A stretch of 64,000 nucleotides of DNA from Nitrospirota bacterium (GCA_035516175.1 DATJAO010000062.1:14040-78039), one strand, 5' to 3'. Positions 35,609 to 54,134 are shown, numbered from the stretch's first letter. Program-made: numbers and translations. Notes: generated from the sequence alone by a model not told the origin.

Positions 35609-35616
35609 GATAACGT

Positions 35617-41437: not shown

Positions 41438-41453
41438 TGGCATCGCAAATGCA
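41438..41453 (+). promoter_or_regulatory. Sigma-54-type -24/-12 motif TGGCAT-N5-ATGCA
   Basis: TGGCATCGCAAATGCA has the GG-to-GC spacing of the TGGCAC-N5-TTGCW consensus. Caveat: the predicted transcript start (about 41464) is only about 4 nt before the ATG at 41468. Confidence 0.3.
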
Positions 41454-41467
41454 CATACTTTCTTGTC

Positions 41468-41797
41468 ATGAAAGAAATTATCCTCTGTTCGTCTAATCCC
41501 ATATTGATCAAAAACCTCTACTGCATTCTAAGAGACGAAGGGTACAACGTGGAAACCGTCGAACACCCCGCCCTCGCTGTCCAGATGGTTATGCTCAAGC
41601 AGTATGACTTCATCATCGTCGATTCGGAACCCTTTGGTCTCTCTGCGGAGGACGCGGTGCAGATCATCAAGACCGTGGTTCCCGGCATGCCTGTCCTTTT
41701 CGTAGGGAAAAAATGCGGCAAGGAATATACGCAGGCCGTTGAACCACCAGTCGACCTCGAGGAATTCAAGCGAACTATCCATGTCATGTCAGTCTGA
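41468..41797 (+). CDS. Stand-alone receiver (CheY-like) domain protein
   Basis: Start moved to the ATG at 41468 (MKEIILCSSNPILIKNLYCILRDEGYNVETV...YDFIIVDSEP). 109 aa with a receiver-like alternation. The acidic pocket is incomplete (no DD pair near the N-terminus). Confidence 0.55.
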   Translation: MKEIILCSSNPILIKNLYCILRDEGYNVETVEHPALAVQMVMLKQYDFIIVDSEPFGLSAEDAVQIIKTVVPGMPVLFVGKKCGKEYTQAVEPPVDLEEFKRTIHVMSV

Positions 41798-41831
41798 GTA
41801 GGTGATATCTCATTGTGCGAAGGGAGATGCT

Positions 41832-42860
41832 ATGAAACCGAAAGAAGTGATTTTCAAGGCATTCGAAGGGGGTAAGCCGGACAGACTTCCGGTGACCCTG
41901 TTTGGCGCAGGCATGTGGAGCATCAAGGGCTGGGGTACATCGTTCGAGGCTCTTTCACGGGACGCCGATAAGATGACCTCTATGCTCATCGACATGAGCG
42001 GGAAGCTCCAGTGTGACATCGTCTATCCGGGCTCGGGTTACAATAACTTTCATGCGTCGGCCCTGGGTGGGAAAATCAAGTGGCGGGAAATTGGCGCGCC
42101 GGACCTGGAGGACCATTTCGTCTCCTCCGAGGAGGATCTCGCGAAGCTTAGAATCAGCGACCTCGACAAGGACGAGGTCATCAACACCGTAAAGAAGGCC
42201 CTGCACAAAACGAAGGCGAAGATCGGCGACACCTACGCCGTGACGATGACGGCCTGGGGCCCTTTCACCCTCGGTGCGCGGCTGGTGGGTGAAGAGGCCA
42301 TGATGAAGGCCACGTTCAAGAAGCCCGCCTTCGTGGAGAAAGTTGTGGACTTCGCCACTGACGTACTGATCCATCTCTACGAGCCCATCGTCGCCGATAA
42401 GACGCTCGAGCTCATCAGCTTGGCCGACCCTACGGCGTCAGGCGACCTTATTTCCCGGAAACAGTTCGAGAAGTTCGCCGTGCCCTATCTCAAGAAATTC
42501 ACCGACTGGGCGAAGGCCCGGGGCGTCCATACTCTGGTGCACATCTGCGGCAACACAACGGACAGGCTGGACCTGTTCCCGCTTACCGGCGCCAGTTGCA
42601 TCAGCCTCGATCACAAGACTGACATCACCAAGGCCAAGGAGACGCTCCAAGGCAAAATGTGCTTCGGCGGGAACGTGGACCCCGTAAAGATCATGCTCAA
42701 CGGCTCTGTTCTGGACGTCGAGAATTGCTGCAAGGAGATCATCAAGGCCGCCGGTACCGACGGCGGATTCGTTCTCATGCCGGGGTGCGACATACCCCCA
42801 ACCGTTCCGTACGAGAATATCCAGAAGTTCATCCAAGTCGCGCGGGAATGGAAACTATGA
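41832..42860 (+). CDS. URO-D family methyltransferase, MtaA/CmuA-like (methylcobamide:thiol type), paralogue 1
   Basis: Start moved to the ATG at 41832 (MKPKEVIFKAFEGGKPDRLPV). H-x-C is in LVHICGNT (His codon at 42540). The distal Cys is in LMPGCDIPPTVP. Confidence 0.8.
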   Translation: MKPKEVIFKAFEGGKPDRLPVTLFGAGMWSIKGWGTSFEALSRDADKMTSMLIDMSGKLQCDIVYPGSGYNNFHASALGGKIKWREIGAPDLEDHFVSSEEDLAKLRISDLDKDEVINTVKKALHKTKAKIGDTYAVTMTAWGPFTLGARLVGEEAMMKATFKKPAFVEKVVDFATDVLIHLYEPIVADKTLELISLADPTASGDLISRKQFEKFAVPYLKKFTDWAKARGVHTLVHICGNTTDRLDLFPLTGASCISLDHKTDITKAKETLQGKMCFGGNVDPVKIMLNGSVLDVENCCKEIIKAAGTDGGFVLMPGCDIPPTVPYENIQKFIQVAREWKL

Positions 42861-42980
42861 ACAAAGGAGGTGAACCGATACTAGTTGTAGTGAGGGGAGA
42901 TTATCAAAGTGGGTATTTTGTAAGAGTTGAAAAAATTGTTTTCCCGGGCACAGAACGCGTCCGGGCAAGGGGAGGAAAAC

Positions 42981-43424
42981 ATGGCTGACAAGAAGATGAC
43001 AGTGGAAGAAGTGAACGAGTACATGAAAAAGCAGTGCGGCTTTGTGCCGAGAATGTTCCAGATCATCAACACCGTAACGCCGGAACCGGGCAGGACCTTC
43101 GCCGATTTCTACGCCAGCATCTTCGGCGATGGGGCCCTTTCCCGCAAGGTGAAAGAGCTGATGTTCATGTCCGGCGGAGTAGGTTACTGCTCGCCTCGCT
43201 GCATTATCCACGTGATCCCCGCGATCAATGCGGGTGCGACCACGGGAGAGATTTTCGAAGCGGCGTCGGTCGGCATGATCCTCGCGGGCTTTGTTCCCGG
43301 CGGGCCCGGCATTCCCTACGCCTTCGAGTACGCCCTGAAGTGCCTGGACATCGAGGCGAAGTACCGCAAGGGCGAGAAGTGGGAATACTTGCCGCAGCCG
43401 AAGTTCGATCATGGTGTGTTTTAA
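42981..43424 (+). CDS. Carboxymuconolactone decarboxylase (AhpD-like) family protein
   Basis: Start moved to the ATG at 42981, with GGAGGA upstream. Contains GALSRKVKELMFMSGGVGYCSPRCIIHVIPA, the AhpD/CMD-like helix with paired Cys and His. Confidence 0.7.
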   Translation: MADKKMTVEEVNEYMKKQCGFVPRMFQIINTVTPEPGRTFADFYASIFGDGALSRKVKELMFMSGGVGYCSPRCIIHVIPAINAGATTGEIFEAASVGMILAGFVPGGPGIPYAFEYALKCLDIEAKYRKGEKWEYLPQPKFDHGVF

Positions 43425-43462: not shown

Positions 43463-43596
43463 GATTCTGACTCATACATTCATTCTTAAGCGATAGCGAC
43501 CTTCAAAGTAACTTGTGCACTTCATAATCACGCATTTGCTCCGGCCTACCCCGCATCTTACGGCGCTTGTCCGGGCAAGAGAAAAGGGGAGCGGTG

Positions 43597-44544
43597 ATGT
43601 TTCGGTTTAAACGAGATCAGAAAGTATATGTACTCGACGGGATTCGGGTCGGAGGGCAGGCCGGTGAGAACCCTCCGCTGTTGATTGCATCCATGTTTCA
43701 TAACAAGGACCGAATTGTTACAGACCGGAAAGGCAATTTCGACCACCAGAAAGCTGCAGAACTCATCAAGCAGCAGGAAAAACTTTCAACCTCCACCGGC
43801 ATCCCGTCCATGGTGGCCATGGTGGCGAACACCCCAGATGAGGCAAAGATCTACATCGACTTCTACCGTGAAACGACCACCATGCCCTTCGGCATCGACA
43901 TGTGGGTCGCCGAGAAGAGAGCCGAGGCCACGGAGTACGTGGCGAAGTTGGGACTGCAGGACAAGTTCTTGTACAACAGCATCACCCCCTGGGACAAGGA
44001 CATCAAGGGTCAGGTCCAGAAACTCAAAGACCTCGGAATCAAGCACGTTGTGGTCCAGGCCTTCGACGACGCTGACCAATCGCCCCTTGGGCGCCTGAAG
44101 TCATTGGAAAAAATTCTTGCCCAGGGCGCGGACAGCTTCAAGACCATCATCGTCGACACCTCCGTCATGAATCTGCCTGCCACATCGTTCTCGCTCGTTG
44201 CCAACCGCTTGATCAAAGAGACGCTCGGGCTTCCCTGCGGCGGCGCCTACTCCAACGGCACGCACATGTGGAAGGATGCGAAGACCATCTGGAGCCTCGA
44301 CGGTTTCAAGGCCATGGACGCCGTTGTCCAGGGCATGGCATCGGTGATCTGGAGCGATTTCAATTTCTACGGCCCCATCGTTACGGCGCCGCGCATCTTC
44401 CCGGCGGTAGCGGCAGCGCATATCCTGCTTACAACGCTGTTGTATGACGAAACTAAAAGAATTCCCGACAATCCCAATATCCCGATCAAGAAGTACTTCG
44501 GTGATTTTCTGGGCAAGCTAACGTCGGGGGCGGCGAGGAAATAG
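43597..44544 (+). CDS. MtrH-like methyltransferase (tetrahydromethanopterin S-methyltransferase subunit H family; pterin:corrinoid methyl transfer)
   Basis: Start moved to the ATG at 43597. MFRFKRDQKVYVLDGIRVGGQAGENPPLLIASMFHNKDRIVTDRKGNFDHQKAAELIKQQE follows the N-terminal pattern I recall for MtrH (MFRF..EQ.V.eigGvk.GGqpGE.PtvLigsiFy......D..G.FD...AE.Li). LYNSI is also present. Confidence 0.83.
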   Translation: MFRFKRDQKVYVLDGIRVGGQAGENPPLLIASMFHNKDRIVTDRKGNFDHQKAAELIKQQEKLSTSTGIPSMVAMVANTPDEAKIYIDFYRETTTMPFGIDMWVAEKRAEATEYVAKLGLQDKFLYNSITPWDKDIKGQVQKLKDLGIKHVVVQAFDDADQSPLGRLKSLEKILAQGADSFKTIIVDTSVMNLPATSFSLVANRLIKETLGLPCGGAYSNGTHMWKDAKTIWSLDGFKAMDAVVQGMASVIWSDFNFYGPIVTAPRIFPAVAAAHILLTTLLYDETKRIPDNPNIPIKKYFGDFLGKLTSGAARK

Positions 44545-44705: not shown

Positions 44706-45734
44706 ATGGCAACAATGAATGCGCGAGAACGGGTACTGAAGATGTTCGCCGGTGAAGAGATCGATCGGCCTCCCTGCTTCAGCGGGATGGGCAATGTGAC
44801 TACGGAGGGCCTCAAGGGGCTCGGGCAGAACTTTGCGGCGACGCATCTCAACGCGAAGATGATGGCCGCGGCCGCGGCTTCGACCTACAAGCTCTTCGGC
44901 TTCGAATGCGGCGTGGCCCCCTTCGACCTCTGCATCGAGGCCGAGGCCATGGGATGCGAGATCAACGTGTATGCCCATTCAGAGGACCTGCTGTATCCCA
45001 CGATCAAGAAGAAGCTGATCCACAACGAAGCGGAATTGGACATCTCCATACCCTCCAATCTCACAACGCGCGGAAGGGTGCCGCTCATGAAGGAGACGAT
45101 CCAACTGCTCAAGAAGGATATCGGCAGCGAAGCGCCCATCGGTTCCTACGTGCTCGGGCCCTTCACGCTGGCCGGACAAATCATGGAACTGAACGATTTG
45201 CTGAAGCTGTCCTTCAAAAAGCCGGACAAGATCGGGAAGCTTCTCGATCAGATGGCGGACGTGATCATCCGGGTGGCGAAGGAGTACGAACAGGCCGGTG
45301 TGGACTTCATAACGGTGCGGGAGATGGGGGCGACGTCGGACGTTCTGAGCCCGCGGGTGTTCAAGAGCCTGATCCTGCCGTACCTCAAAAAGATCTTCGA
45401 AAAACTGAACGTGCCGAGCGTGCTCCACATCTGCGGCAAGACGAATGACATCGTCCCGTTCATGGCCGAGAGCGGTTCGAAAGCGATCAGCGTGGACCAG
45501 AAGAACGACGTTGCCGAGACACGCAAGAAGCTCGGCCCCAAGGCGCTGGTCTTCGGGAACTATGACCCTTACAACGTGTTGGTAGCGGGCTCGCCGGACC
45601 TGGTGCGCCAGACCATCAAGAAATGCATGGATGACGGAGTGACCGCAGTCTGGCCCGGCTGCGACATCTGGCCGACGGTGCCGCCGGATAACATGAAGGC
45701 CATGATGGACGAAGTTAAAAATTACCGGAGGTGA
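44706..45734 (+). CDS. URO-D family methyltransferase, MtaA/CmuA-like (methylcobamide:thiol type), paralogue 2
   Basis: 342 aa. N-terminus ERVLKMFAGEEIDRPPCFSG. H-x-C is in VLHICGKT (His codon at 45426). The distal Cys is in VWPGCDIWPTVP. Confidence 0.8.
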   Translation: MATMNARERVLKMFAGEEIDRPPCFSGMGNVTTEGLKGLGQNFAATHLNAKMMAAAAASTYKLFGFECGVAPFDLCIEAEAMGCEINVYAHSEDLLYPTIKKKLIHNEAELDISIPSNLTTRGRVPLMKETIQLLKKDIGSEAPIGSYVLGPFTLAGQIMELNDLLKLSFKKPDKIGKLLDQMADVIIRVAKEYEQAGVDFITVREMGATSDVLSPRVFKSLILPYLKKIFEKLNVPSVLHICGKTNDIVPFMAESGSKAISVDQKNDVAETRKKLGPKALVFGNYDPYNVLVAGSPDLVRQTIKKCMDDGVTAVWPGCDIWPTVPPDNMKAMMDEVKNYRR

Positions 45735-45738
45735 TCCT

Positions 45739-46431
45739 ATGGTTACGGAAGAAAAAAAGGCGGAGCTCTTGGCGAAACTGCGGAACGCCGTGATCCAGTA
45801 CGATGAGGATACGGCCAAGGAAGCGGCTCAAGAGGCACTGGACGTTGGCATGGAAGCGAACGACGCCATTTTCAACGGTTTGGTGAGCGGCATGGTGGAA
45901 GTGGGAAAAATGTTCGAGGCGCAGGAATACTTCGTGCCCGAACTGCTCATGTGCGCCGACGCGCTGTACGCCGGCCTGGATATCCTGAAGCCCCATGTGA
46001 AACAGCTGGACCTGGGGGTGAAGGGCTCGGTCGTGATCGGGACCGTGGAAGGCGACGTTCACGATATCGGCAAGAACATCGTGAAGATGATGTTCGACGT
46101 GGCCGGTTTCACGGTCTATGACCTAGGCAGGGACGTGCCGCTCGACAAGTTTGTGCAAGAGCAGCTCCGGACCGATTCCGACCTTGTCTGCCTTTCGGCC
46201 ATGATGACTACAACGATGACGGGAATGAAGAAAGTGATCGACGACCTTCGGACCAGAAACCCCAATGTGAAGATCATGATCGGCGGAGCTCCCGTTTCCC
46301 AGGACGTGGCGGACAAGTACGGCGCAGACGGATACGCAAAAGACGCGACCAACGCATTGAAGGACGCCATCAACATGATCGCGTCCCTCAAGAAGATGAA
46401 GGATGAGGTGGAAGCCAAGAAGGCGAAATGA
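45739..46431 (+). CDS. Methyltransferase cognate corrinoid protein (B12-binding, MtaC/MtbC/MttC-like)
   Basis: 230 aa. N-terminal helical cap, then the DxHxxG motif in VEGDVHDIGKNIV, followed by LSAMMTTTM and IMIGGAPV. Confidence 0.9.
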   Translation: MVTEEKKAELLAKLRNAVIQYDEDTAKEAAQEALDVGMEANDAIFNGLVSGMVEVGKMFEAQEYFVPELLMCADALYAGLDILKPHVKQLDLGVKGSVVIGTVEGDVHDIGKNIVKMMFDVAGFTVYDLGRDVPLDKFVQEQLRTDSDLVCLSAMMTTTMTGMKKVIDDLRTRNPNVKIMIGGAPVSQDVADKYGADGYAKDATNALKDAINMIASLKKMKDEVEAKKAK

Positions 46432-47078
46432 AGACCTCGCTGAAGCGGGAGCTGCTGGACCACGGCGCCGCGGTTGTGGGAATCGCTGGCCTCCGCGGGT
46501 ACCTGAGCGGCGAGATCAGCCACTTGGACCGGGCGGTGTCCATCGGTGTGGACCGGAAGCTAAATGAGGACACCCTCAGCCAGCTGGTGAGTCTCCAGAA
46601 GCGCGCCGTCCGGTTCCTGAAGGCCCGGGGACACCGGACTCTGGCCATACCGCCGGACTCGGACCGCAAGAAGGACACGTTCATCTCGAAGCTCTACTCC
46701 CTGTTCAATCACAAGATGGCCGCCACGTCGGCGGGGCTGGGCTGGATCGGGAAGAACGGTCTTCTCATAAGCCCCCGCTACGGGCCGCGGTTGTCCCTGG
46801 CCACAGTGCTGACGGACGCCCGGCTCAAGCCGGACGCGCCCGTCGAACACTGCCTCTGTGGAGAATGCATGCTCTGCATTGAGCACTGCCCTTCGAAGGC
46901 CATAACCGGGTCGGAATGGTCGCGGTCATCGCCTTTCGCGGAACTGGTAAAGCTCAATGCCTGCAGAAGTCATAAAGCTGCGAAAAGAGCAACGGACAAC
47001 AAACCCAATTGCGGGCTATGCATCAACATATGCCCATATGGAAGAAGAAATTCTGACATGAAGAATGCGGAACGCTGA
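46428..47078 (+). CDS. 4Fe-4S double-cluster protein related to the epoxyqueuosine reductase (QueG) / reductive dehalogenase core
   Basis: 216 aa. Contains HKMAATSAGLGWIGKNGLLISPRYGPRLSLATVLTDARL, then CGECMLCIEHCP and CGLCINICP. The start overlaps the corrinoid protein stop (ATGA). Confidence 0.68.
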   Translation: MKTSLKRELLDHGAAVVGIAGLRGYLSGEISHLDRAVSIGVDRKLNEDTLSQLVSLQKRAVRFLKARGHRTLAIPPDSDRKKDTFISKLYSLFNHKMAATSAGLGWIGKNGLLISPRYGPRLSLATVLTDARLKPDAPVEHCLCGECMLCIEHCPSKAITGSEWSRSSPFAELVKLNACRSHKAAKRATDNKPNCGLCINICPYGRRNSDMKNAER

Positions 47079-47184: not shown

Positions 47185-49161
47185 ATGTCGAAGAAACATA
47201 AGGTCATTTTCCAGCCCTCGGGCAGGCGCGGCGAGATCGAGGAAGGTAAGACCATCCTCGAGGCAGCCCAGGCCCTGGGCGTTGACATCGAAGGGCTCTG
47301 CGGCAATAAGAAGGTCTGCGGCAAATGCAAGGTGAGGATCGAGGAGGGCTACTTCGAGAAGGACAACATCGACTCGGGAATGACACACCTCTCGCCGCTA
47401 ACCGAGGCGGAGAAGAAGCACATCAAACCCGAGGATGGGCCCGGCATCCGGCTGTCCTGCACCGCGGAAGTACACGGCGATATCAAGGTCTTCGTGCCCG
47501 AGCGGTCGCGGGCCGGCAAGCAGGTGGTGCGCAAGGCTGCTAAGGAGCTGACGATCAAGCTCGATCCGGCGGTGAAGAAGTACAACGTGGACCTCGTGCC
47601 GCCGACACTCCACGATATGACTACGGGAGACTGGGAGCGAGTGCTCAAGTTCCTCGAGGACGACTACGGACTCAAGGGGCTCACCTTCGATTACCTCGTC
47701 CTGAAGGACCTCCAGGACCTCCTGCGTAAGGGCGAATGGAAGGCCACGGTCACGGTCTGGATGGACAAGGAGATCATCAAGGTGGAACCGGGGTTCGTCG
47801 AAGAGAGCTACGGGCTGGCCGTGGACATCGGCACCACGACCTGCGTGGGCTACCTCACGGACCTCAGCACAGGCAAGGTGGTAAACACCGAGTCCATGAT
47901 GAACCCCCAGGTTCCCTACGGCGAGGACGTGATGTCCCGCATCACCTACGCGATGAGCAATCCCCGCGGGCTCGAGACCATGCAAAAGGCGATAATCCAG
48001 GGCCTGAACGAGATCATCGAGCGAGTGGTGACCGAGATCAGGAAGGACGGTCCCAACCCGGGGCATATCATCGATGATCTCACGATCGTGTTCAACACGG
48101 CAATGCACCACATCTTTCTGGGTCTGAACCCCGAGTATATCGGCCGTTCACCCTTCATTCCCGCGGTCCAGAGCTCGCTCGACCTGAAGGCGCGCGACCT
48201 AGGGCTCCGGATCAATCCTGCGGCGTACATCCACGTCCTGCCCATCGAAGCGGGCTTTGTGGGCGCGGACAACGTGGGCGTGCTGATTGCTGAGGAGCCT
48301 TACAACCAGGACGAGAACGTGCTGATCATTGACATTGGAACGAACGGCGAGCTGCTCATGGGGAACCGGAACAAGGTCTGCTCCACGTCCTGCGCAACGG
48401 GACCGGCCTTCGAAGGCGCCCAGATCAAGTTCGGCATGCGCGCAGCGCCAGGCGCCATCGAGACCGTGGAGATCGATCCCGCGACCAAGGAGCCCCGCTA
48501 CAAGGTCATCGGCAAGGCGGACTGGCACACACACATCGAGAACGTGAACGCCAAGGGCCTCTGTGGCTCCGCCATCATACAGGTCGTCGCCGAGATGTTC
48601 AGGGCGGGTATCGTGGACAAAAGCGGACGGTTCGTCATGGATCTGGGAACACCGCGCGTTCGGAAGGACGCCGATGGCAAGCCGGAGTACGTGCTCGCTT
48701 GGGCCTCCGAAACCTCCATCGGCCAGGACATCACCATTACCCAGGGCGACGTGCGGGCGCTCCAGCTGGCCAAAGGTGCACTTTACACCGGCGCGAAGCT
48801 CATGATGAAACGGCTCGGTATTGCCACGCTGGACCGGGTGATCCTCGCCGGCGCCTTCGGGAGCCACATCGACCGCGAGGCGTCCATGACGCTCGGCATG
48901 TTCCCGGACTGTTCTCTCGACAAGGTCTACGCCGTGGGCAACGCGGCCGGAGACGGTTCGCGTATGGCGCTCCTGAATCGGGACAAGCGGCGCGAAGCGA
49001 ACGAGCGTGCTCGGTGGGTCGAGTTCGTCGAGATCGCCACAGATCCGCTGTTCGAGAGGGAGTTCATGCAGGCGATGCACATCCCGCACATGAAGGACAT
49101 GTTCCCGAACTTGAAGGAGCTTCTTGCAAAGAAGGGGAGCACAGTGGAGATCAAGGGGTAG
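47185..49161 (+). CDS. RamA-type corrinoid reductive activase (N-terminal 2Fe-2S ferredoxin plus ASKHA/DUF4445 ATPase)
   Basis: Start moved to the ATG at 47185, with GGGAGGA upstream. Plant-type ferredoxin Cys pattern LCGNKKVCGKCKV...RLSCTA. ASKHA motifs GLAVDIGTTT, IIDIGTNGE, CATGPAFEG and GNAAGDG. Confidence 0.85.
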   Translation: MSKKHKVIFQPSGRRGEIEEGKTILEAAQALGVDIEGLCGNKKVCGKCKVRIEEGYFEKDNIDSGMTHLSPLTEAEKKHIKPEDGPGIRLSCTAEVHGDIKVFVPERSRAGKQVVRKAAKELTIKLDPAVKKYNVDLVPPTLHDMTTGDWERVLKFLEDDYGLKGLTFDYLVLKDLQDLLRKGEWKATVTVWMDKEIIKVEPGFVEESYGLAVDIGTTTCVGYLTDLSTGKVVNTESMMNPQVPYGEDVMSRITYAMSNPRGLETMQKAIIQGLNEIIERVVTEIRKDGPNPGHIIDDLTIVFNTAMHHIFLGLNPEYIGRSPFIPAVQSSLDLKARDLGLRINPAAYIHVLPIEAGFVGADNVGVLIAEEPYNQDENVLIIDIGTNGELLMGNRNKVCSTSCATGPAFEGAQIKFGMRAAPGAIETVEIDPATKEPRYKVIGKADWHTHIENVNAKGLCGSAIIQVVAEMFRAGIVDKSGRFVMDLGTPRVRKDADGKPEYVLAWASETSIGQDITITQGDVRALQLAKGALYTGAKLMMKRLGIATLDRVILAGAFGSHIDREASMTLGMFPDCSLDKVYAVGNAAGDGSRMALLNRDKRREANERARWVEFVEIATDPLFEREFMQAMHIPHMKDMFPNLKELLAKKGSTVEIKG

Positions 49162-49389: not shown

Positions 49390-49707
49390 ATGACAACGGT
49401 CGTCGTCAACTCCGGAGCGTGCGGTTTTACGATCACTATAAAGGCCAAGAAGGGAAAAGAAAGGAAGATCGACATATCCCTGAACACGGCCTGTGAGATG
49501 GTGCAGAAGATGCTTGCCGATATCGCGACCGTGGACCATAGGGTGACGCTCATAGGTTTCCGCGACAATCCGGTCTATGTGTCCGCGGCGAAGCACCTCA
49601 AACACGTAGCTTGTCCGGTTCCGTCGGCGATACTGAAAGCCATTGAGACGGAAACAGGCATGAACGTGCCAAAGGATGCTCGGATAGAGTTCGTCCGGGA
49701 GGAATGA
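49390..49707 (+). CDS. Small Cys-containing hypothetical protein
   Basis: Start moved to the ATG at 49390 (MTTVVVNSGACGFTITIKAKKGK), with GAGGA about 11 nt upstream. 105 aa. No motif recognised. Confidence 0.45.
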   Translation: MTTVVVNSGACGFTITIKAKKGKERKIDISLNTACEMVQKMLADIATVDHRVTLIGFRDNPVYVSAAKHLKHVACPVPSAILKAIETETGMNVPKDARIEFVREE

Positions 49708-49785
49708 CGGTGCTGGTGGCTTTCCCATTATCCCGTACGAAGCCAATGTGTTATACTGATATTACCACTTTGGGAATGGGCGGCC

Positions 49786-50472
49786 ATGGGTACGATAGTG
49801 ATTGTTGCTGCATATGGTGTGTATGCGGCGTTCTGGATACGGTTCTTGCTGCATGCACTGCTTTGGTGGAAGGCGGTGACACGGCCCGCCACGATCGTCG
49901 GACCTTTGTCGCCATCGTCTGTCAAGGCATGGGCCTTTTCGGCACGGGACGTGGTCCTTTTCTGGAGACTTTTAAAAGTCAACCCAGCGCTGTGGTTCGG
50001 CGAATGGCTGTTCCATGTGTCGTTCCTGTTCGTTATCATGCGGCACCTGCGCTATGTTTTTCTCCCCGTCCCGGAGTGGGTATGGTGGTTCCAGATTCCC
50101 GGGCTGATCGCCGGATATATCCTTCCTCTGTCCCTGCTCTATATCTTCATCGTCCGGATGTTCTCGGTCCGGGAAAAATATTCTACGCCTGCCAACATGG
50201 TTCTGTTGGGCCTGCTGTTCGTGATCAGTTCCCTTGGCCTGCTGATGGTCACTCTGTTCAGGACCGATGTCGTGGCGGTAAAATTGTTCACCATCGGCAT
50301 CCTGAGCGTTACACCGGCCGCTGTGCCGGGCAGCATCCTGTTCCTGCTGCATTTTTCCCTGGTCTTGATCCTGATCCCTTTACTCCCGACCCACATCCTG
50401 ACCGCTCCGTTGGTGATGCTGGAGGCGAGGAAACGGGATTTGGGGCTTCCCCTGGTGATGCATGAAGAATAA
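49786..50472 (+). CDS. NarI/HdrE/DsrM-like integral membrane cytochrome b-type subunit
   Basis: 228 aa with about five hydrophobic helices. Conserved-looking His residues sit in helices (FLLHALLWW, WLFHVSFLFVIMRHL, LLHFSL, PTHIL). The 3' end overlaps the HdrD-like gene by 11 nt. Confidence 0.6.
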   Translation: MGTIVIVAAYGVYAAFWIRFLLHALLWWKAVTRPATIVGPLSPSSVKAWAFSARDVVLFWRLLKVNPALWFGEWLFHVSFLFVIMRHLRYVFLPVPEWVWWFQIPGLIAGYILPLSLLYIFIVRMFSVREKYSTPANMVLLGLLFVISSLGLLMVTLFRTDVVAVKLFTIGILSVTPAAVPGSILFLLHFSLVLILIPLLPTHILTAPLVMLEARKRDLGLPLVMHEE

Positions 50473-51664
50473 GCAGTCATTTACCGAAGATCTTTCGCCC
50501 CGGCAAATCCTTGAAATCGACGCTTGCACCCAGTGTGGCGAGTGCCTGAAGCACTGCCCCGTACAGGACGTGACGGGCAACCCCGCGGTTTCACCACCGG
50601 AGAAGATCCGCATGTTCCGTGAGTTCATCCGTGCCTCTGACGGTCTTAAGGCCAAGCTCTTCGGGCCGGGCGAGGTGGACCGTAAACTGCTTGAGGATTT
50701 CACCCGGGCAGTATTTGAATGTACTACCTGCGGAGCCTGCGGCCAGAACTGCCCCGTCGGCATTTTCACACAGCGGCTCTGGCCCATGCTCAGGAAAGAG
50801 ATGGTAAAGCGGGGCCTCGGCCCCATCGGCATCCAGGCGAACTTGCCGAAGGCCATTACGAGCAGCGGCAATCCCTATGATAAGCCTGCAGCCGATCGTT
50901 ACCGGCCCTGGTTCCCGGAGAATGCAAAGGTGGCCGACCGGGCGGACGTGGCCTATTACGCCGGATGCACGGGCTCCTATGAGGCGCAGCCCATGGTGCG
51001 CGGAGACGCCCTCGTGCTGGGCGCCATGGGTGAGCCATTCACCATGCTGCCACCGGACGAGGAGGTCTGCTGTGGATTCCCGCTCTTCATCACGGGACAG
51101 CACGACCTGCTCGAGGACCTGGTCAAGAGGCTTGTGGAAGGATACAAGGCCAAGGGCGTACGGACGCTCGTCTGTTCGTGCCCCTGCTGCGTGAACATCA
51201 TGTCGCGGGACTGGCCAGCGATCTACGGCCATGAGCTGCCCTTCACGATACGGCATATTACCCAGTTCGTTGCTACAGCCATGGAGCAGGGAAAACTTCG
51301 TATCTCGAAAGAACTGCACGAACGGGTGATCTACCACGACCCCTGCTATCTCAGCAGGGGAGTTGGAGTCATTGAGGAGCCCCGTGAGGTGCTCCGGCGC
51401 ATCCCCGGGCTCACGCTGCTTGAGTTCGAGCGGCACGGCCTGAACTCGCGCTGCTGCGGCTCCGGCGGCGCCGCACGGAAGGTGTTTCATGAGAATGCCA
51501 TCAAGATGGGAAGGCTGACGATCGACGAGGCTGTCAAAAAAAAGGCGGATCGGTTGATCCTGTCCTGTCCCGCGTGCTACGCCAAGGTGAACGAGGCAAT
51601 GCAGGAGCATGACAAGCAGATCAGGATCACCGACATCATGGAACTGATTTCAAGTTTGATTTAA
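50462..51664 (+). CDS. HdrD/DsrK-like Fe-S oxidoreductase (two 4Fe-4S motifs plus two CCG domains)
   Basis: 400 aa. Cluster motifs CTQCGECLKHCP and CTTCGACGQNCP. CCG motifs EVCCGFP and SRCCGSGG, with DPCY between them. Confidence 0.85.
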   Translation: MKNKQSFTEDLSPRQILEIDACTQCGECLKHCPVQDVTGNPAVSPPEKIRMFREFIRASDGLKAKLFGPGEVDRKLLEDFTRAVFECTTCGACGQNCPVGIFTQRLWPMLRKEMVKRGLGPIGIQANLPKAITSSGNPYDKPAADRYRPWFPENAKVADRADVAYYAGCTGSYEAQPMVRGDALVLGAMGEPFTMLPPDEEVCCGFPLFITGQHDLLEDLVKRLVEGYKAKGVRTLVCSCPCCVNIMSRDWPAIYGHELPFTIRHITQFVATAMEQGKLRISKELHERVIYHDPCYLSRGVGVIEEPREVLRRIPGLTLLEFERHGLNSRCCGSGGAARKVFHENAIKMGRLTIDEAVKKKADRLILSCPACYAKVNEAMQEHDKQIRITDIMELISSLI

Positions 51665-51756: not shown

Positions 51757-53013
51757 ATGAGCCATTATTCCATACGATGCAGGAAGTGCGGAAAGATCCT
51801 TGGGAATTCCTACTGCGCCGACTGCGAGCACTGTAAAGATGCTCTCCTCGTGACCGAGTATCGCAATCACCTCTTCATGGAGAGCGGGGCGAAGGGCGTC
51901 TGGAGGTTTAACTGGCTTCCAGTCCATCAGCCTCATTCCGTCCAACCGGGACCAGTCGTGTATCGTTCCATCGGTCTCGCGGAGCATCTCAGCCTCAAGG
52001 AGCTCTTCATCGCTTTCAACGGCTACTGGCCAGAGAAAGGGGCGCTGCTCGAGACCTGTACCTTCAAGGAGTTTGAGGCCGCCGTAGTGCTCCAGAACGC
52101 CCGGGAGAACGGTGTCGGTGGCCTGATCGTCGCATCGGCGGGGAACACTGCGCGGGCCTTCGCGCACCTTTCGGCGAAGAAGGGCTTGCCGGTGGTCATC
52201 GTTGTGCCGCGGATGTGTCTGACAGAAATGTGGTATCTCGAAAGCTCTTCCTTGGTGCCCACGCTGGCCGTGGGAGACGGCGACTACTCGGACTCCATCG
52301 ATGTGGCGAAGCGCATCGCCCTGACCACGGGCTTCCCGTTTGAGGGAGGAGTAAAGAATATCGCAAAACGAGACGGCCTCGGTATCGTGATGCTTGAGGC
52401 GGTTTCGAAGATAGGAAAACTGCCGGACCACTATGTCCAGGCCGTAGGAAGCGGCACCGGCGCAGTCGGAGGCTGGGAAATGGCAGAGCGGCTCGTCAGG
52501 GACGGTAGGTTCGGTACGCGCCTGCCGAAACTCCACCTGGGGCAAAACGTGCCCTTTGTGCCCATGCTCCATGCCTGGGAGAAAGGTAGCAGGTCTTTGT
52601 TTCGCGAGGACCTGAATCCCGAGCTTATCGGCCACATCACAACGCGCGTGCTTTCGACCCGCTACCCGGCCTATTCGGTGCAAGGCGGCGTGTTCGATGC
52701 CCTTACCTCGGCCGGCGGCGGAATGTACGGCGTTGAGAACGAGGCGGTATATGCAGCAATGGACGAGTTCCTCAAGACCGAGGGGATCGACCTTGTTCCT
52801 GCATCGGGTGTCGCCGTAGCTGTGCTCAAAGATGCCGTGCGGAAAGGCACGATCGGGAAGAGCGATACCATCCTTCTGAACATCACCGGCGGTGGCGAGG
52901 CGCGGTTACGGAAGGATAAGCAGACCCATATGGTCATCCCGAAGTTCATATCGAAGAACGCGACGGAGAAAGATATCGAGGACCTGCTGTGCCACGACCT
53001 GAAGAAGAGTTAA
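51757..53013 (+). CDS. Cysteate synthase-like PLP enzyme (threonine synthase fold)
   Basis: 418 aa. N-terminal Cys-rich ribbon RCRKCGK...CADCEHC. The lysine region TCTFKEFEA replaces the PTGSFKDRG motif of true threonine synthases. SAGNTARAFA is present. The 3' end overlaps a ComDE-like gene. Assigned from recalled family features and gene context. Confidence 0.6.
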   Translation: MSHYSIRCRKCGKILGNSYCADCEHCKDALLVTEYRNHLFMESGAKGVWRFNWLPVHQPHSVQPGPVVYRSIGLAEHLSLKELFIAFNGYWPEKGALLETCTFKEFEAAVVLQNARENGVGGLIVASAGNTARAFAHLSAKKGLPVVIVVPRMCLTEMWYLESSSLVPTLAVGDGDYSDSIDVAKRIALTTGFPFEGGVKNIAKRDGLGIVMLEAVSKIGKLPDHYVQAVGSGTGAVGGWEMAERLVRDGRFGTRLPKLHLGQNVPFVPMLHAWEKGSRSLFREDLNPELIGHITTRVLSTRYPAYSVQGGVFDALTSAGGGMYGVENEAVYAAMDEFLKTEGIDLVPASGVAVAVLKDAVRKGTIGKSDTILLNITGGGEARLRKDKQTHMVIPKFISKNATEKDIEDLLCHDLKKS

Positions 53014-54134
53014 TAGCAATACTGAAAAGGAACGGTGTAGATTTCACCGCATCGCTCCCCTGTGAGAAGATCAAGACCTTGCTCGAGATGGTAGGCCGGT
53101 CCTTCACTCACCTTCCGCTGACGAGGGAAGAGGAGGGCGTGGGCATCTGCGCCGGCGCGGCCCTCGCTTGCAGGAAGCCGGCTATGTTTGTTCAAAGTTC
53201 AGGAATCGGGAACATGATCAATGCCCTGCTCTCCCTCACGGCGTTCTATGAACTTCCCCTTGCCCTGTTCGTGAGTCGGAGGGGAATTTACAAGGAGAAG
53301 ATCGAGGCTCAGTTCCCCATGGGCCGGCGGCTCCCTAGCATCCTGACAGGCGCAGGGATCAATCATGCCGAAATAAACAGCAGAGAAGATTTCAGTATTG
53401 TGGAACAGAAGCTTCAGCACGTGTATCCCAAGAGCAGCATCCATGCATTTCTGTTAAGCCCGGCTATATGGGAAAATTCCGAGTGCGAAGTGTCTAGTGT
53501 GGAGTGCGGGATTAAAAAAGACAAAAAAACTCCTGAGACTTTGGGCGAAAGGCGAGAAGCAAAAGTAAGGCAACATGCGCAGTTGACCCGGTACGAGATC
53601 ATCAGGCTAATCGCATCGTACCTTGACAGGAAAGTCGTTGTCAGTAATCTCGGCTGGCCTTCCAAGGAACTCTATGCTCTAAAGCATCAGCCCTCGAATT
53701 TCTACATGCTGGGAAGTATGGGGATGGTCACGCCCATCGGACTAGGCATCGCGCTTACGTCATCTAAAGAAATCATCGTGATCGACGGCGACGGCAGCCT
53801 GCTCATGAATCCCGGCAGCCTCGCAACGGCAGCCTCTGTTGCGCCATACAATCTAACCATCATCGCCATCGATAACGGTGCATACGGCTCAACAGGAAAC
53901 CAGCCGACGCTGGCTGGGACCTGCGTAGATCTTGAATACGTGGCGCAGGGGTTCGGGATCAGGAATACCGTGAAAGTGGCGAGTGAAGAGCAGATTGTTG
54001 GAGTGATGCAGAAACCGCGGTCTGGGCTGACTTTTATTCACGTCTTGGCTATTCCGGGAAACAGGGACGTGCCGAATATCCCCCTGCACCATCTGGAAAT
54101 TAAAAAGCAGGTGCAGGAATTTTTGAAGAGATGA
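52989..54134 (+). CDS. comDE: Sulfopyruvate decarboxylase, fused alpha-beta (ComDE-like, ThDP-dependent)
   Basis: 381 aa. LPLTREEEGVGICAGAALA and RRGIYKEKIEAQFPMGRRL match what I recall of ComD (PVTREEEGIGICAGAYLAG, RG...EKI.AQ.PMGR), not phosphonopyruvate decarboxylase. The C-terminal half has the ThDP motif VIDGDGSLLMN...IDNGAYGSTG. GTG start, uncertain. Confidence 0.78.
   Translation: MPRPEEELIAILKRNGVDFTASLPCEKIKTLLEMVGRSFTHLPLTREEEGVGICAGAALACRKPAMFVQSSGIGNMINALLSLTAFYELPLALFVSRRGIYKEKIEAQFPMGRRLPSILTGAGINHAEINSREDFSIVEQKLQHVYPKSSIHAFLLSPAIWENSECEVSSVECGIKKDKKTPETLGERREAKVRQHAQLTRYEIIRLIASYLDRKVVVSNLGWPSKELYALKHQPSNFYMLGSMGMVTPIGLGIALTSSKEIIVIDGDGSLLMNPGSLATAASVAPYNLTIIAIDNGAYGSTGNQPTLAGTCVDLEYVAQGFGIRNTVKVASEEQIVGVMQKPRSGLTFIHVLAIPGNRDVPNIPLHHLEIKKQVQEFLKR

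What the first reader, a model, noticed from the sequence alone, without database searches (positions are those of the whole stretch)
49390..51664. HdrE/NarI-like cytochrome b and an HdrD/DsrK-like CCG protein sit between the corrinoid activase and the sulfonate genes
Seen in sequence: a 228-aa membrane protein with about five helices and helix-embedded His residues overlaps by 11 nt a 400-aa protein. That protein has two CxxCxxCxxxCP ferredoxin motifs and two CCG motifs. A 105-aa Cys-containing ORF of unknown family precedes the pair.
Established knowledge: this two-subunit layout is that of HdrED, DsrMK and HmeCD, which couple quinol or methanophenazine to reduction of a disulfide or trisulfide.
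Inference: possible roles are re-reducing a thiol cofactor disulfide used by the neighbouring methyltransferases, or passing electrons from MetF-catalysed methyl-THF oxidation to menaquinone. Neither coupling is established for a locus like this.
Basis: partly seen in the sequence, partly recalled or inferred. Interest (0 to 1): 0.65.

Follow-up and report, generated by a model that had tools for sequence, protein, structure and literature searches.

The report
HdrDE-like membrane redox module, Nitrospirota
Three real genes encode a membrane cytochrome b, a heterodisulfide-reductase-D-like iron-sulfur protein and a small cysteine/histidine protein; in anaerobic Nitrospirota they are always embedded in one operon with methanogen-like methyl-transfer genes and coenzyme-M-type sulfonate genes, an association I found no description of in the literature I could search and whose chemistry is still unproven.

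Summary
Window 49390-51664 holds DUF6951 (105 aa), a 228-aa five-helix cytochrome-b-like protein and a 400-aa protein with two CxxCxxCxxxCP motifs and two complete CCG motifs. The last two overlap by 11 nt.

The cytochrome is a small, fast-evolving subfamily of the NarI/DsrM/HdrE superfamily. It has four invariant His residues, which align with the four NarI heme ligands.

The CCG protein keeps all ten Cys of the HdrB/HdrD non-cubane cluster sites. Its best model match is TfrB (thiol:fumarate reductase). It is not DsrK, GlpC or LldE.

In about 35 related loci, nearly all labelled Nitrospirota, the order MtaA-like, AhpD-like, MtrH-like, MtaA-like, corrinoid protein, ferredoxin-like, RACo, DUF6951, cytochrome b, CCG, cysteate synthase, ComDE is conserved. 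A conserved sigma-54-type motif sits upstream. The block cytochrome b-CCG-cysteate synthase-ComDE is never interrupted. MetF is not a fixed neighbour.

Best reading (about 0.4): a menaquinone-linked thiol/disulfide oxidoreductase serving a CoM-like thiol made by the co-transcribed genes. Main rival (about 0.25): an EtfD/EMO-like, non-catalytic electron wire from C1 oxidation or RACo to menaquinone.

It is a new variant of a known kind. The function is inferred, not shown.

The parts
49390..49707 (+). DUF6951 protein, 105 aa. C11, C35, H72 and C75 are conserved across all clades, which suggests a metal or Fe-S site.
   Evidence: Pfam PF22263, E 5.8e-30. Conservation. AlphaFold2 pLDDT 71.5. Weak but coherent Foldseek hits to IscU/SufU/SufE/CsdE (E 0.13-0.9, TM about 0.45-0.54). 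No sequence-profile support against IscU.
49786..50472 (+). Five-TM cytochrome-b-like subunit, 228 aa, of the NarI/DsrM/HdrE superfamily but in its own subfamily. Putative heme ligands are H77 and H87 (TM2) and H189 and H203 (TM5).
   Evidence: NCBIfam DsrM E 3.2e-12, but 46 bits against cut-off 300. No Pfam hit. Invariant His residues. P-T-H replaces the PFSKLxH motif of distant relatives. AlphaFold2 model. Top Foldseek hit is the EtfD membrane domain. NarI register.
50462..51664 (+). HdrD-like subunit, 400 aa, with two cubane [4Fe-4S] motifs and two complete CCG (non-cubane cluster) domains. No signal peptide motif, so presumably cytoplasmic.
   Evidence: NCBIfam bit scores: TfrB 183, LdhH 127, GlpC 103, DsrK 86, all below their cut-offs. 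PDB: EtfD 9ojn at E 7e-33, HdrB weakly. IMG names homologues 'heterodisulfide reductase subunit D'.
51757..53013 (+). Cysteate synthase.
   Evidence: TIGR03844, 463 bits against cut-off 325. Always immediately downstream of the CCG gene.
52989..54134 (+). Fused sulfopyruvate decarboxylase (ComDE).
   Evidence: TIGR03845, 179 bits against 148; TIGR03846, 222.1 against 221.5. The phosphonopyruvate decarboxylase model is below its cut-off. Overlaps cysteate synthase by 25 nt.
47185..49161 (+). RACo-type reductive activator of corrinoid proteins. The likely start is M26 of ORF 47110-49161.
   Evidence: Pfam Fer2, RACo_linker, Raco_middle and RACo_C_ter. Homologues are 657-663 aa.
46428..47078 (+). 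216-aa protein with a two-[4Fe-4S] domain of the RdhA/QueG type.
45739..46431 (+). Corrinoid (B12-binding) protein.
   Evidence: Pfam B12-binding and B12-binding_2; TIGR02370.
44706..45734 (+). MtaA/CmuA-family methyltransferase (called MT1b here), with Zn motif H241-x-C243...C319.
   Evidence: TIGR01463, 251 bits against cut-off 235. Best PDB hit is MtaA 4AY7, E 4.4e-48. Motif.
43567..44544 (+). MtrH-family methyl-corrinoid:pterin methyltransferase.
   Evidence: Pfam MtrH, E 2.4e-49. NF002142, 320 bits against cut-off 287.
42927..43424 (+). CMD/AhpD-like protein with C88-x3-C92-x2-H95. It is the most conserved small gene of the cluster.
   Evidence: Pfam CMD, E 2.2e-5. 59-97% identity across loci. 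Sequence.
41802..42860 (+). Second URO-D/MtaA-like methyltransferase (called MT1a here), with H247-x-C249...C329.
41468..41797 (+). Receiver-only response-regulator-like protein, 109 aa.
   Evidence: Pfam Response_reg, E 3.2e-6, below the gathering score. Present at this position in most loci.
41438..41453 (+). Sigma-54-type -24/-12 motif, TGGCATCGCAAATGCA, at the head of the cluster.
   Evidence: The same motif lies at the same distance from MT1a in 20 of 23 loci with enough upstream DNA. None is found upstream of DUF6951, the cytochrome gene or cysteate synthase.

Best explanation
Genes 49786-51664 encode a two-subunit, menaquinone-interacting membrane oxidoreductase of the HdrDE type.

The parts:
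- A five-helix, probably di-heme cytochrome b sits in the membrane.
- It passes electrons through two cubane [4Fe-4S] clusters to two non-cubane clusters in the cytoplasmic HdrD-like subunit.
- DUF6951 is an accessory three-Cys, one-His metalloprotein encoded just upstream.

The module is a fixed component of an operon of about 13 kb in anaerobic Nitrospirota. That operon also encodes a corrinoid methyl-transfer chain and the first and third enzymes of the archaeal type-2 coenzyme M route (cysteate synthase and ComDE).

Most likely mechanism: the non-cubane clusters are catalytic, as in HdrD and TfrB. They interconvert a sulfonate thiol (CoM or a CoM-like product of the co-transcribed genes) and its disulfide, with menaquinol/menaquinone as the redox partner. 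This would keep the thiol reduced for the MtaA-type thiol methyltransferases and the AhpD-like protein. Run in reverse, it would deliver thiol-borne electrons to the quinone pool.

Shown here:
- gene reality, family membership and cofactor-ligand motifs;
- translational coupling of the two subunits;
- conserved synteny, promoter motif and taxonomic range.

Inferred:
- heme and cluster loading, and the quinone partner;
- that a thiol is actually made, since no ComF was seen;
- the disulfide chemistry and the direction of electron flow.
For: (1) Both CCG domains keep all five Cys (C169, C203, C204, C240, C243; C295, C331, C332, C369, C372). All are invariant in homologues. Mycobacterial EtfD, a pure electron wire, has Thr in place of the second Cys of CCG-1 and His in place of our C242 (alignments; structure paper PMC13083937).

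(2) The best curated model is TfrB, the CoM/CoB thiol-using enzyme: 183 bits over residues 13-398. Others score lower: LdhH 127, GlpC 103, DsrK 86, TmcB 75, HmcF 62. IMG assigns the name hdrD.

(3) Cytochrome b. H77, H87, H189 and H203 are invariant in 29 and in 59 sequences. They align with NarI H56, H66, H187 and H205. The model has five TM helices, and there is a DsrM profile hit at E 3e-12.

(4) The cytochrome and CCG genes overlap by 11 or 4 nt in most loci.

(5) Linkage. In every locus where the region is present, cytochrome b-CCG-cysteate synthase-ComDE is contiguous and uninterrupted. CCG-to-cysteate-synthase gaps are -4 to +246 nt. This holds even where the cytochrome is only 34-48% identical. 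In contrast, the DUF6951/cytochrome junction tolerates insertions.

(6) The operon contains thiol-related partners:
- MT1b is MtaA-like (PDB 4AY7, E 4e-48; TIGR01463 above cut-off), with the HxC...C Zn motif.
- MT1a has the same motif.
- The AhpD/CMD-family protein is highly conserved.

(7) There is a single conserved sigma-54-type motif at the operon head and none internally. No convincing terminators lie inside the cluster.

(8) CoM can act as a general low-molecular-weight thiol, and its oxidised forms need re-reduction (PMC12713407).
Against: - No CoB pathway and no MCR are visible in the window or loci, so no known reaction generates a heterodisulfide. This was not checked genome-wide.
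- No COG1900/MMP16 (ComF) CoM synthase lies in the window or in the loci flanks. Production of a thiol from sulfoacetaldehyde is therefore unproven.
- The closest solved structure is EtfD, and EMO shows that non-cubane clusters can be non-catalytic even when largely intact.
- All curated model scores are far below their cut-offs, so this is not an orthologue of any characterised enzyme.
- No proper phylogeny with authentic HdrD could be built, because no HdrD sequence was available.
- FolD inserted next to the cytochrome gene in five loci points to C1 oxidation rather than thiol chemistry.
Confidence: 0.4

Rival explanations
1. Electron-wire model (EtfD/EMO-like). The non-cubane clusters are not catalytic. 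The complex only connects a soluble redox protein to the menaquinone pool. That partner could be MetF during methyl-THF oxidation, or the RACo/ferredoxin-like/DUF6951 set. Flow would run towards menaquinone for methyl oxidation, or in reverse, driven by proton-motive force, to supply electrons for corrinoid reactivation.
For: - The best PDB match is EtfD 9ojn (E 7e-33). The top Foldseek hit of the cytochrome model is also EtfD.
- Recent work shows that HdrD-like modules serve as wires from a flavoprotein to (methyl)menaquinone.
- FolD is inserted directly between DUF6951 and the cytochrome gene in L008, L030, L033, L034 and L037.
- MetF lies just upstream in the window and in L002, L003, L004 and L006.
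- DUF6951 has a three-Cys, one-His set suited to a redox cluster and sits 3 nt after RACo in L030 and L034.
- Methyl-THF oxidation (about -200 mV) needs an acceptor more positive than NAD+. MetFV-HdrABC-MvhD complexes in acetogens are a precedent for MetF pairing with Hdr modules (established knowledge, from memory).
Against: - MetF is absent from the neighbourhood in most loci and lies outside the conserved promoter.
- No flavoprotein or ETF is a conserved member of the cluster.
- Both CCG sites are complete, unlike EtfD and EMO, whose distal site is degenerate.
- This model does not explain the invariant, uninterrupted linkage to cysteate synthase/ComDE.
Confidence: 0.25
2. Biosynthetic model. 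The HdrD-like enzyme replaces the archaeal CoM synthase ComF (MMP16). It would work with electrons from menaquinol via the cytochrome, and possibly with DUF6951 as an IscU/SufE-like sulfur carrier. The reaction would be the reductive thiolation of sulfoacetaldehyde, the ComDE product, to CoM.
For: - Gene order DUF6951-cytochrome b-CCG-cysteate synthase-ComDE, with the last four never separated.
- In Methanosarcina the same two genes are followed by MMP16 (MA3297-3299). No COG1900 protein is in the window or flanks here.
- ComF is itself a sulfurtransferase domain plus a ferredoxin domain for electron supply.
- DUF6951 gives coherent though weak fold hits to IscU, SufU, SufE and CsdE.
- DsrK acting on the DsrC trisulfide is a precedent for a CCG enzyme working on a carrier-bound sulfur (established knowledge).
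Against: - The fold similarity is not significant (E >= 0.13), and the profile comparison with IscU finds nothing.
- A respiratory-type membrane complex for cofactor synthesis would be unusual.
- A COG1900 enzyme may be encoded elsewhere in the genome. L-ASST can substitute for ComF when sulfide is present.
- DUF6951 is separated from the pair by insertions in about 10 loci.
Confidence: 0.15
3. The pair is a DsrMK (or HmeCD/TmcBC) paralogue working in dissimilatory sulfur metabolism on DsrC or a similar protein trisulfide, and is only accidentally next to the methyltransferase genes.
For: - The hosts belong to an anaerobic, sulfur-cycling Nitrospirota lineage (locus titles include Thermodesulfovibrio and Dissulfurispiraceae).
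- The cytochrome's only curated hit is DsrM.
- IMG sometimes names homologues DsrM.
Against: - DsrK scores 86 bits against cut-off 400, and DsrM 46 against 300.
- No dsr genes are in any locus.
- Linkage to the methyltransferase and sulfonate genes is invariant across deep divergence, so it is not accidental.
Confidence: 0.05
4. The CCG protein is a GlpC/LldE/GlcF/LdhH-type subunit of a hydroxy-acid or glycerol-3-phosphate dehydrogenase.
For: LdhH (127 bits) and GlpC (103 bits) models give partial matches.
Against: - Both are far below their cut-offs (800 and 278) and cover only the CCG half. TfrB scores higher and over the full length.
- No GlpAB, LutBC or FAD-dehydrogenase partner is in any locus.
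Confidence: 0.03

Closest known systems
HdrDE, the membrane-bound heterodisulfide reductase of Methanosarcinales
   Same: - Two subunits: a NarI-like five-TM cytochrome b and a cytoplasmic protein with two cubane motifs and two complete CCG domains.
- Adjacent, coupled genes.
- Occurs with MtaA-, MtrH- and MtaC-like genes, a corrinoid activator, and type-2 CoM biosynthesis genes.
   Different: - Bacterial host, with menaquinone rather than methanophenazine expected as partner.
- No MCR or CoB genes seen nearby.
- The cytochrome belongs to a separate small subfamily with a 4-residue deletion in the TM5 PFSKLxH motif and a conserved C-terminal His-Glu.
- Orthology to HdrD was not tested by phylogeny.
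TfrB of thiol:fumarate reductase (Methanothermobacter)
   Same: Best-scoring curated profile: 183 bits over the whole HdrD-like part (residues 13-398 against model positions 127-486). The non-cubane clusters are used catalytically with CoM/CoB thiols.
   Different: - TfrB has an extra N-terminal SdhB-like part and pairs with the flavoprotein TfrA, not with a cytochrome b.
- The score is below the family cut-off of 385.
EtfD (Mycobacterium, PDB 9OJN) and EMO (Syntrophus), ETF:menaquinone oxidoreductases
   Same: - Closest solved structure by sequence (E 7e-33).
- Same chain of cofactors: NarI-like heme domain, two cubane clusters, two CCG-domain clusters.
- Menaquinone is the partner.
   Different: - Those are single fused polypeptides that accept electrons from ETF, and their distal CCG site is degenerate (linear 3Fe-4S or 4Fe-5S).
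- Here the subunits are split, both CCG sites are complete, and no ETF genes are nearby.
DsrMK, the core of DsrMKJOP
   Same: - Cytochrome b plus CCG protein coupling the menaquinone pool to cytoplasmic sulfur chemistry on a small Cys protein (DsrC).
- DUF6951 could be a formal analogue of that small partner.
   Different: - Profile scores are far below the DsrM and DsrK cut-offs.
- No dsr context.
- DUF6951 is unrelated to DsrC.
mec cassette of anaerobic dichloromethane degraders, and Mto/O-demethylase systems
   Same: The surrounding operon has the same parts list: MtaA/CmuA-type and MtrH-type methyltransferases, a corrinoid protein, and a RACo activator preceded by an accessory protein.
   Different: - None of those cassettes is reported to carry a cytochrome b/HdrD-like pair or cysteate synthase/ComDE.
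- Gene order differs.

Membership tests
NarI/DsrM/HdrE di-heme cytochrome b superfamily | Five transmembrane helices | tested here: met
   The AlphaFold2 model (pLDDT 84.9, pTM 0.80) has long helices at 2-32, 67-90, 103-126, 135-158 and 184-224.
NarI/DsrM/HdrE di-heme cytochrome b superfamily | Two His in TM2 spaced i, i+10, and two His in TM5, serving as the four heme axial ligands | tested here: met
   H77, H87, H189 and H203 are invariant. TM5 spacing is 14 rather than 18 because of a 4-residue deletion.
NarI/DsrM/HdrE di-heme cytochrome b superfamily | Significant match to a family profile | tested here: inconclusive
   NCBIfam DsrM gives E 3.2e-12 but 46 bits against cut-off 300. Pfam Nitrate_red_gam gives no hit at E <= 0.01, although the paralogue in L032 does hit it. 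The Foldseek top hit is the EtfD membrane domain, prob 0.84, E 0.29.
NarI/DsrM/HdrE di-heme cytochrome b superfamily | Binds heme b and reacts with quinone | not testable with these tools
   Needs spectroscopy or a structure.
HdrD (subunit of HdrDE) | Two CxxCxxCxxxCP cubane [4Fe-4S] motifs at the N-terminus | tested here: met
   C22, C25, C28, C32-P33 and C87, C90, C93, C97-P98. Pfam Fer4_8, E 8e-13.
HdrD (subunit of HdrDE) | Two complete CCG domains (CX31-39CCX35-36CXXC), giving two non-cubane cluster sites | tested here: met
   C169-X33-C203C204-X35-C240xxC243 and C295-X35-C331C332-X36-C369xxC372. All are invariant in homologues.
HdrD (subunit of HdrDE) | Encoded next to, and working with, an HdrE-type cytochrome b | tested here: met
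   11-nt overlap with the cytochrome gene in the window. The overlap is conserved as -11 or -4 nt in most loci.
HdrD (subunit of HdrDE) | Phylogenetic placement within the authentic HdrD clade | not tested
   No authentic HdrD sequence or HdrD-specific profile was available. Proxies only: TfrB is the best NCBIfam hit, and IMG names homologues hdrD.
HdrD (subunit of HdrDE) | Reduces CoM-S-S-CoB; the organism has MCR and CoB | not testable with these tools
   No mcr or CoB genes are in the window or loci.
DsrK/DsrM (DsrMKJOP) | Reaches the equivalog profile cut-offs and lies in a dsr gene context | tested here: not met
   DsrK 86 bits against 400; DsrM 46 against 300. No dsr genes in any locus.
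EtfD/EMO (ETF:menaquinone oxidoreductase) | Membrane and Fe-S domains fused in one polypeptide, a degenerate distal CCG site, and an ETF partner | tested here: not met
   The genes are split. CC is retained where EtfD has CT, and Cys where EtfD has His583. No etf genes in the loci.
GlpC / LldE / GlcF / LdhH | Reaches the family profile cut-off and has a cognate dehydrogenase partner gene | tested here: not met
   GlpC 103 bits against 278; LdhH 127 against 800; GlcF 36 against 333. No partner genes present.
DUF6951 (Pfam PF22263) | Full-length match above the gathering score | tested here: met
   104 bits against 27, covering model positions 1-101 of 101.
IscU/SufU/SufE-like fold (for DUF6951) | Significant structural or profile similarity, with Cys ligands in equivalent positions | tested here: inconclusive
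   Foldseek top hits are IscU, SufE, CsdE and SufU, but at E 0.13-0.9 and TM 0.36-0.54, from a model of only pLDDT 71.5.
Archaeal type-2 CoM biosynthesis (context genes) | Cysteate synthase, ComDE and ComF (MMP16/COG1900) | tested here: inconclusive
   Cysteate synthase and ComDE pass their curated cut-offs. No COG1900 protein is in the window or flanks.

The most novel reading that the evidence does not exclude
Anaerobic Nitrospirota (class Thermodesulfovibrionia) make coenzyme M, or a close sulfonate thiol, by the archaeal phosphoserine/cysteate route. They would use it in a methanogen-style methyl-thiol/HdrDE cycle wired to menaquinone, without methyl-CoM reductase.

Within this reading, the DUF6951/cytochrome b/HdrD-like set may also be the missing, non-COG1900 enzyme that turns sulfoacetaldehyde into the thiol.
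Probability: 0.25. Interest if true: 0.85.

Novelty: new variant of a known kind. Interest (0 to 1): 0.64.

Why it matters
If the module really handles a CoM-type thiol, several things follow.
- A whole bacterial lineage common in soils, peat and aquifers would carry the cofactor chemistry thought to be specific to methanogens and alkane-oxidising archaea, plus a few alkene-oxidising bacteria.
- That chemistry would be coupled to the quinone pool through a new HdrDE relative.
- It would offer a bacterial, possibly more tractable, system for studying non-cubane cluster catalysis.
- It would also offer a candidate route for anaerobic methyl-group oxidation in sulfur-cycling Nitrospirota.

If the module is instead an electron wire, it would be the first split, fully Cys-ligated relative of EtfD/EMO. 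It would also be a candidate answer to the old question of where electrons from methyl-THF oxidation go.

Either way, the conserved 12-gene operon gives DUF6951 and an unannotated cytochrome b subfamily a defined genomic context.

Tried and rejected
- **Loci search with broad alignments.** Searches failed because no conserved stretch was found. A 4-sequence alignment worked, but it probably biases recovery towards Nitrospirota.
- **PDB sequence search with the cytochrome.** No hits even at E 10.
- **Foldseek.** No hit at E <= 0.001 for either model. The results are used only as weak leads.
- **hhalign of DUF6951 against IscU.** Nothing beyond three residues aligned, so the IscU-like idea stays a hypothesis.
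- **hhalign of the cytochrome against NarI and against the L032 paralogue.** Low probability, because the template was a single sequence. Only the alignment register is used.
- **Rfam scan of 34-56 kb.** No riboswitch or other RNA.
- **Sigma-70 promoter and terminator scan.** Not above shuffled expectation.
- **Literature searches.** DUF6951, Nitrospirota with cysteate synthase, Nitrospirota with MtrH and corrinoid, and Thermodesulfovibrionia with corrinoid and methyltransferase found nothing describing this cluster.
- **DsrMK and GlpC/LldE membership.** Rejected on profile cut-offs and context.
- **MetF as a fixed partner.** Rejected, because it is missing from most neighbourhoods.
- **An apparent 2-kb gap between RACo and DUF6951 in L030 and L034, and a 798-nt gap in L036.** These were artefacts of split BLAST hits and frameshifted assembly.
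- **A proper phylogeny among HdrD, DsrK, TmcB, GlpC and LldE.** Could not be built, because reference sequences could not be fetched.

Full report

Yes. The ORF list shows three genes on the + strand:
- 49390-49707, 105 aa, using the internal ATG of ORF 49204-49707. Homologues are almost all 103-107 aa.
- 49786-50472, 228 aa.
- 50462-51664, 400 aa. It overlaps the previous gene by 11 nt (ATGAAGAATAA).

The 400-aa protein has two ferredoxin motifs: C22/25/28/32-P33 and C87/90/93/97-P98. It also has two CCG triplets inside two complete CCG domains: C169-X33-C203C204-X35-C240xxC243 and C295-X35-C331C332-X36-C369xxC372. Pfam reports CCG twice (E 9.5e-26) plus Fer4_8.

The 228-aa protein has no Cys. 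Its His residues are at 23, 77, 87, 189, 203 and 226.

The 105-aa ORF is not familyless. It is a full-length member of Pfam DUF6951 (E 5.8e-30).

- Upstream: a RACo-type corrinoid activase.
- Downstream: cysteate synthase (TIGR03844, 463 bits against cut-off 325) and a fused sulfopyruvate decarboxylase.

The window comes from a Nitrospirota MAG. An identical protein is named that way. Housekeeping genes around the cluster (mnmE, mnmG, parB, yidC) suggest that it lies near the chromosome origin.

**2. The membrane subunit**

An exhaustive HMMER search of 1.84 billion representative proteins found only 218 clusters at E <= 0.001, and only 39 at E <= 1e-30. This is a small family.

Conservation:
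- Among 29 diverse full-length members (31-58% identical), the invariant residues include H77, H87, H189 and H203.
- The same holds in a second set of 59 sequences.

More distant relatives carry the canonical PFSKLxH motif of NarI, DsrM and HdrE. The close family instead reads L-P-[ST]-H, a 4-residue deletion that keeps the His.

An AlphaFold2 model (pLDDT 84.9) has five long helices. H77 and H87 lie on the second helix, and H189 and H203 on the fifth.

A profile alignment to E. coli NarI puts the four His residues opposite the four known heme ligands, H56, H66, H187 and H205. The gap falls exactly at PFSR.

Other independent support:
- An NCBIfam DsrM hit at E 3.2e-12.
- The EtfD membrane domain as the top Foldseek hit, prob 0.84, E 0.29.

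The protein does not reach the DsrM cut-off (46 bits against 300), and it misses Pfam Nitrate_red_gam. I therefore file it as a divergent subfamily of the NarI-type superfamily, not as DsrM, HdrE or NarI proper. Heme binding is inferred.

**3. The CCG subunit**

NCBIfam scores:

| Model | Bits | Cut-off |
|---|---|---|
| TfrB (full-length alignment of the HdrD-like part) | 183 | 385 |
| LdhH | 127 | 800 |
| GlpC | 103 | 278 |
| DsrK | 86 | 400 |
| TmcB | 75 | 735 |
| HmcF | 62 | 750 |

None reaches its cut-off. IMG names many homologues 'heterodisulfide reductase subunit D'.

The only good PDB match is 9ojn (E 7e-33), with HdrB far weaker. 9ojn is mycobacterial EtfD, an ETF:menaquinone oxidoreductase (PMC13083937).

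That paper and a 2026 preprint on Syntrophus EMO show that HdrD-like modules can be pure electron wires. In those enzymes the distal CCG site is degenerate: EtfD has CT instead of CC, and a His completes the other cluster.

In the alignments, our protein keeps CC (C203, C204) and has Cys (C242) where EtfD has His583. Both five-Cys sets are therefore intact, as in the catalytic HdrB, HdrD and TfrB. All are invariant among homologues.

This favours a catalytic site but does not prove one.

**4. DUF6951**

Across all clades C11, C35, H72 and C75 are conserved. This is a three-Cys, one-His set typical of a metal or [2Fe-2S] site.

The AlphaFold2 model is only moderate (pLDDT 71.5). Its Foldseek hits are weak (E 0.13-0.9) but strikingly uniform: IscU, SufU, SufE and CsdE. 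A profile comparison with IscU finds nothing.

I treat 'IscU/SufE-like' as a lead only.

**5. Context is the strongest evidence**

A scan of one genome per GTDB species returned 37 loci. Nearly all are labelled Nitrospirota, including Thermodesulfovibrio and Dissulfurispiraceae. Two short contigs carry other labels and are probably mis-binned.

Mapping the window's proteins onto these loci and two more shows the same order everywhere the DNA extends far enough:

receiver-like protein, MtaA-like MT1a, CMD/AhpD-like, MtrH-like, MtaA-like MT1b, corrinoid protein, ferredoxin-like protein, RACo, DUF6951, cytochrome b, CCG, cysteate synthase, ComDE.

The order holds even in the most divergent loci. 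Identity to the window's proteins there:

| Protein | Identity in the most divergent loci |
|---|---|
| Cytochrome b | 34-48% |
| DUF6951 | 38-50% |
| CCG protein | 60-73% |
| Methyltransferases | 60-78% |
| CMD/AhpD-like | 59-97% |

Gene spacing:
- The cytochrome and CCG genes overlap by 11 or 4 nt in most loci.
- CCG-to-cysteate-synthase gaps are -4 to +246 nt.
- Cysteate synthase and ComDE always overlap.

The four-gene block cytochrome b-CCG-cysteate synthase-ComDE is never interrupted. The junction between DUF6951 and the cytochrome gene is a soft spot. It holds:
- FolD in L008, L030, L033, L034 and L037;
- an MCP-like gene in L023, while in L010 the MCP-like gene lies between RACo and DUF6951;
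- a second, canonical NarI-type cytochrome plus CCG pair in L032 and L036;
- 500-700 nt of non-coding DNA in L004 and L009.

DUF6951 follows RACo by 3 nt in L030 and L034. By linkage it belongs with RACo at least as much as with the pair.

MetF is adjacent only in the window and four loci. Elsewhere cobW directly precedes the cluster.

DNA downstream of ComDE is variable and contains no COG1900/MMP16 gene.

A sigma-54-type motif (TGGCAY-N5-WTGCA; window 41438-41453) lies at the same distance upstream of MT1a in 20 of 23 loci. It never occurs upstream of DUF6951, the cytochrome gene or cysteate synthase. A PAS-GAF histidine kinase and a sigma-54 activator are encoded just upstream in the window.

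The whole set is therefore most simply one inducible operon. Transcription itself was not tested.

**6. What the neighbours say**

- MT1b is a bona fide MtaA/CmuA-family enzyme. TIGR01463 scores above cut-off, and its best PDB hit is Methanosarcina MtaA 4AY7 (E 4e-48). It has an HxC...C motif at the positions I recall for the MtaA zinc site.
- MT1a carries the same motif.
- Together with an MtrH-type enzyme, a corrinoid protein and RACo, the operon resembles a soluble methyl-pterin:thiol methyl-transfer chain. It also resembles bacterial O-demethylase, Mto and mec cassettes.
- Cysteate synthase and ComDE are the type-2 archaeal route to sulfoacetaldehyde. In Methanosarcina they are followed by MMP16/ComF, the CoM synthase (PMC12068725 and PMC12713407). 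ComF is missing here.

**7. Mechanism**

Best-supported reading, confidence about 0.4. This is an HdrDE-type menaquinol:disulfide (or thiol:menaquinone) oxidoreductase. Its substrate would be the sulfonate thiol made with the help of the co-transcribed cysteate synthase and ComDE. That thiol would be used by the MtaA-type methyltransferases and perhaps the AhpD-like protein. The reasons are:
- the complete catalytic-type Cys sets;
- the TfrB/HdrD-like profile;
- the unbroken linkage to the sulfonate genes.

Weaknesses:
- There is no known source of a disulfide without MCR and CoB.
- There is no ComF in view.
- No authentic HdrD was available for a tree.

Rival 1, about 0.25. This is an EtfD/EMO-like wire that links MetF-type methyl-THF oxidation, or the RACo/ferredoxin-like/DUF6951 set, to menaquinone.
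- For: the FolD insertions, the EtfD similarity and thermodynamic sense.
- Against: it leaves the sulfonate genes unexplained, and no flavoprotein partner is conserved.

Rival 2, about 0.15. The module replaces ComF in the reductive thiolation of sulfoacetaldehyde.

DsrMK-type and GlpC/LldE-type readings are disfavoured by profile cut-offs and context.

**8. Novelty**

Searches of the paper library found no description of this cluster, of DUF6951, or of CoM-type genes in Nitrospirota. The library is incomplete.

The fold and cofactor plan are known from HdrDE, DsrMK and EMO. What is new:
- the cytochrome subfamily;
- the split, fully ligated HdrD-like partner in bacteria;
- its fixed place in a methanogen-like methyl-transfer and sulfonate operon.

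I rate it a new variant of a known kind, with interest 0.64.

Noticed in passing
window 41438-41453 (+); the same motif in L001-L034: A sigma-54-type -24/-12 motif (TGGCAY-N5-WTGCA) is conserved at a fixed distance upstream of the first methyltransferase gene in 20 of 23 loci. It ends only about 14 nt before the ATG of the small receiver-like gene, so the transcript would be nearly leaderless.
   Followed up: partly
L008 8970-9923; L030 8301-9242; L033 8993-9934; L034 7931-8878; L037 3708-4649: FolD (methylene-THF dehydrogenase/cyclohydrolase, confirmed with Pfam) is inserted exactly between DUF6951 and the cytochrome b gene in two separate sub-lineages. This ties the operon to C1-THF oxidation.
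   Followed up: partly
L032 7781-9825 (also L036): A second cytochrome b/CCG pair lies directly upstream of the conserved pair. The cytochrome is canonical: 279 aa, with PHSKLIH and a Pfam Nitrate_red_gam hit. The CCG protein is 417 aa and 31% identical to the window's. This suggests an old duplication, with the conserved pair being the diverged copy.
   Followed up: partly
window 42927-43424 (+): A CMD/AhpD-family protein with C88-x3-C92-x2-H95 is among the most conserved genes of the cluster (59-97% identity where the cytochrome is 34-60%). Its role next to corrinoid methyltransferases is unknown.
   Followed up: no
window 50457-50472 (cytochrome b C-terminus): The extreme C-terminus of the cytochrome (…V-M-H226-E-x-stop) is invariant. 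It is encoded by the same nucleotides as the start of the CCG gene, so this stretch is under a double constraint. H226 could also be a contact or ligand at the subunit interface.
   Followed up: no
window 34528-39100: An NMT1/SsuA-like periplasmic binding protein (minus strand), a PAS-GAF histidine kinase and a sigma-54-dependent response regulator lie just upstream of the cluster. They are a likely sensory system for the operon. In L009, L012 and L013 the activator gene lies downstream instead.
   Followed up: no
window 54294-54917 (-): A conserved 207-aa protein without a Pfam match lies on the opposite strand near ComDE in most loci (34-86% identity). It is acidic and disordered at the N-terminus. 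By eye the C-terminus looks like a ribbon-helix-helix, so it may be a regulator.
   Followed up: no
window 11476-13887 (-), GC about 0.45 against about 0.55 elsewhere: An 803-aa protein made almost entirely of ankyrin repeats sits in a low-GC stretch (10-14 kb). This suggests horizontally acquired DNA.
   Followed up: no
window 21758-22825 (+): A 355-aa protein matches the CLP1 P-loop domain (polynucleotide kinase type, E 7e-36), which is uncommon in bacteria. It lies between mnmG and parB.
   Followed up: no
window 46428-47078 (+): A 216-aa protein between the corrinoid protein and RACo carries only the two-[4Fe-4S] part typical of reductive dehalogenases and QueG. It occupies the position of the accessory protein (MecG) that precedes RACo in the mec cassette.
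   Followed up: no
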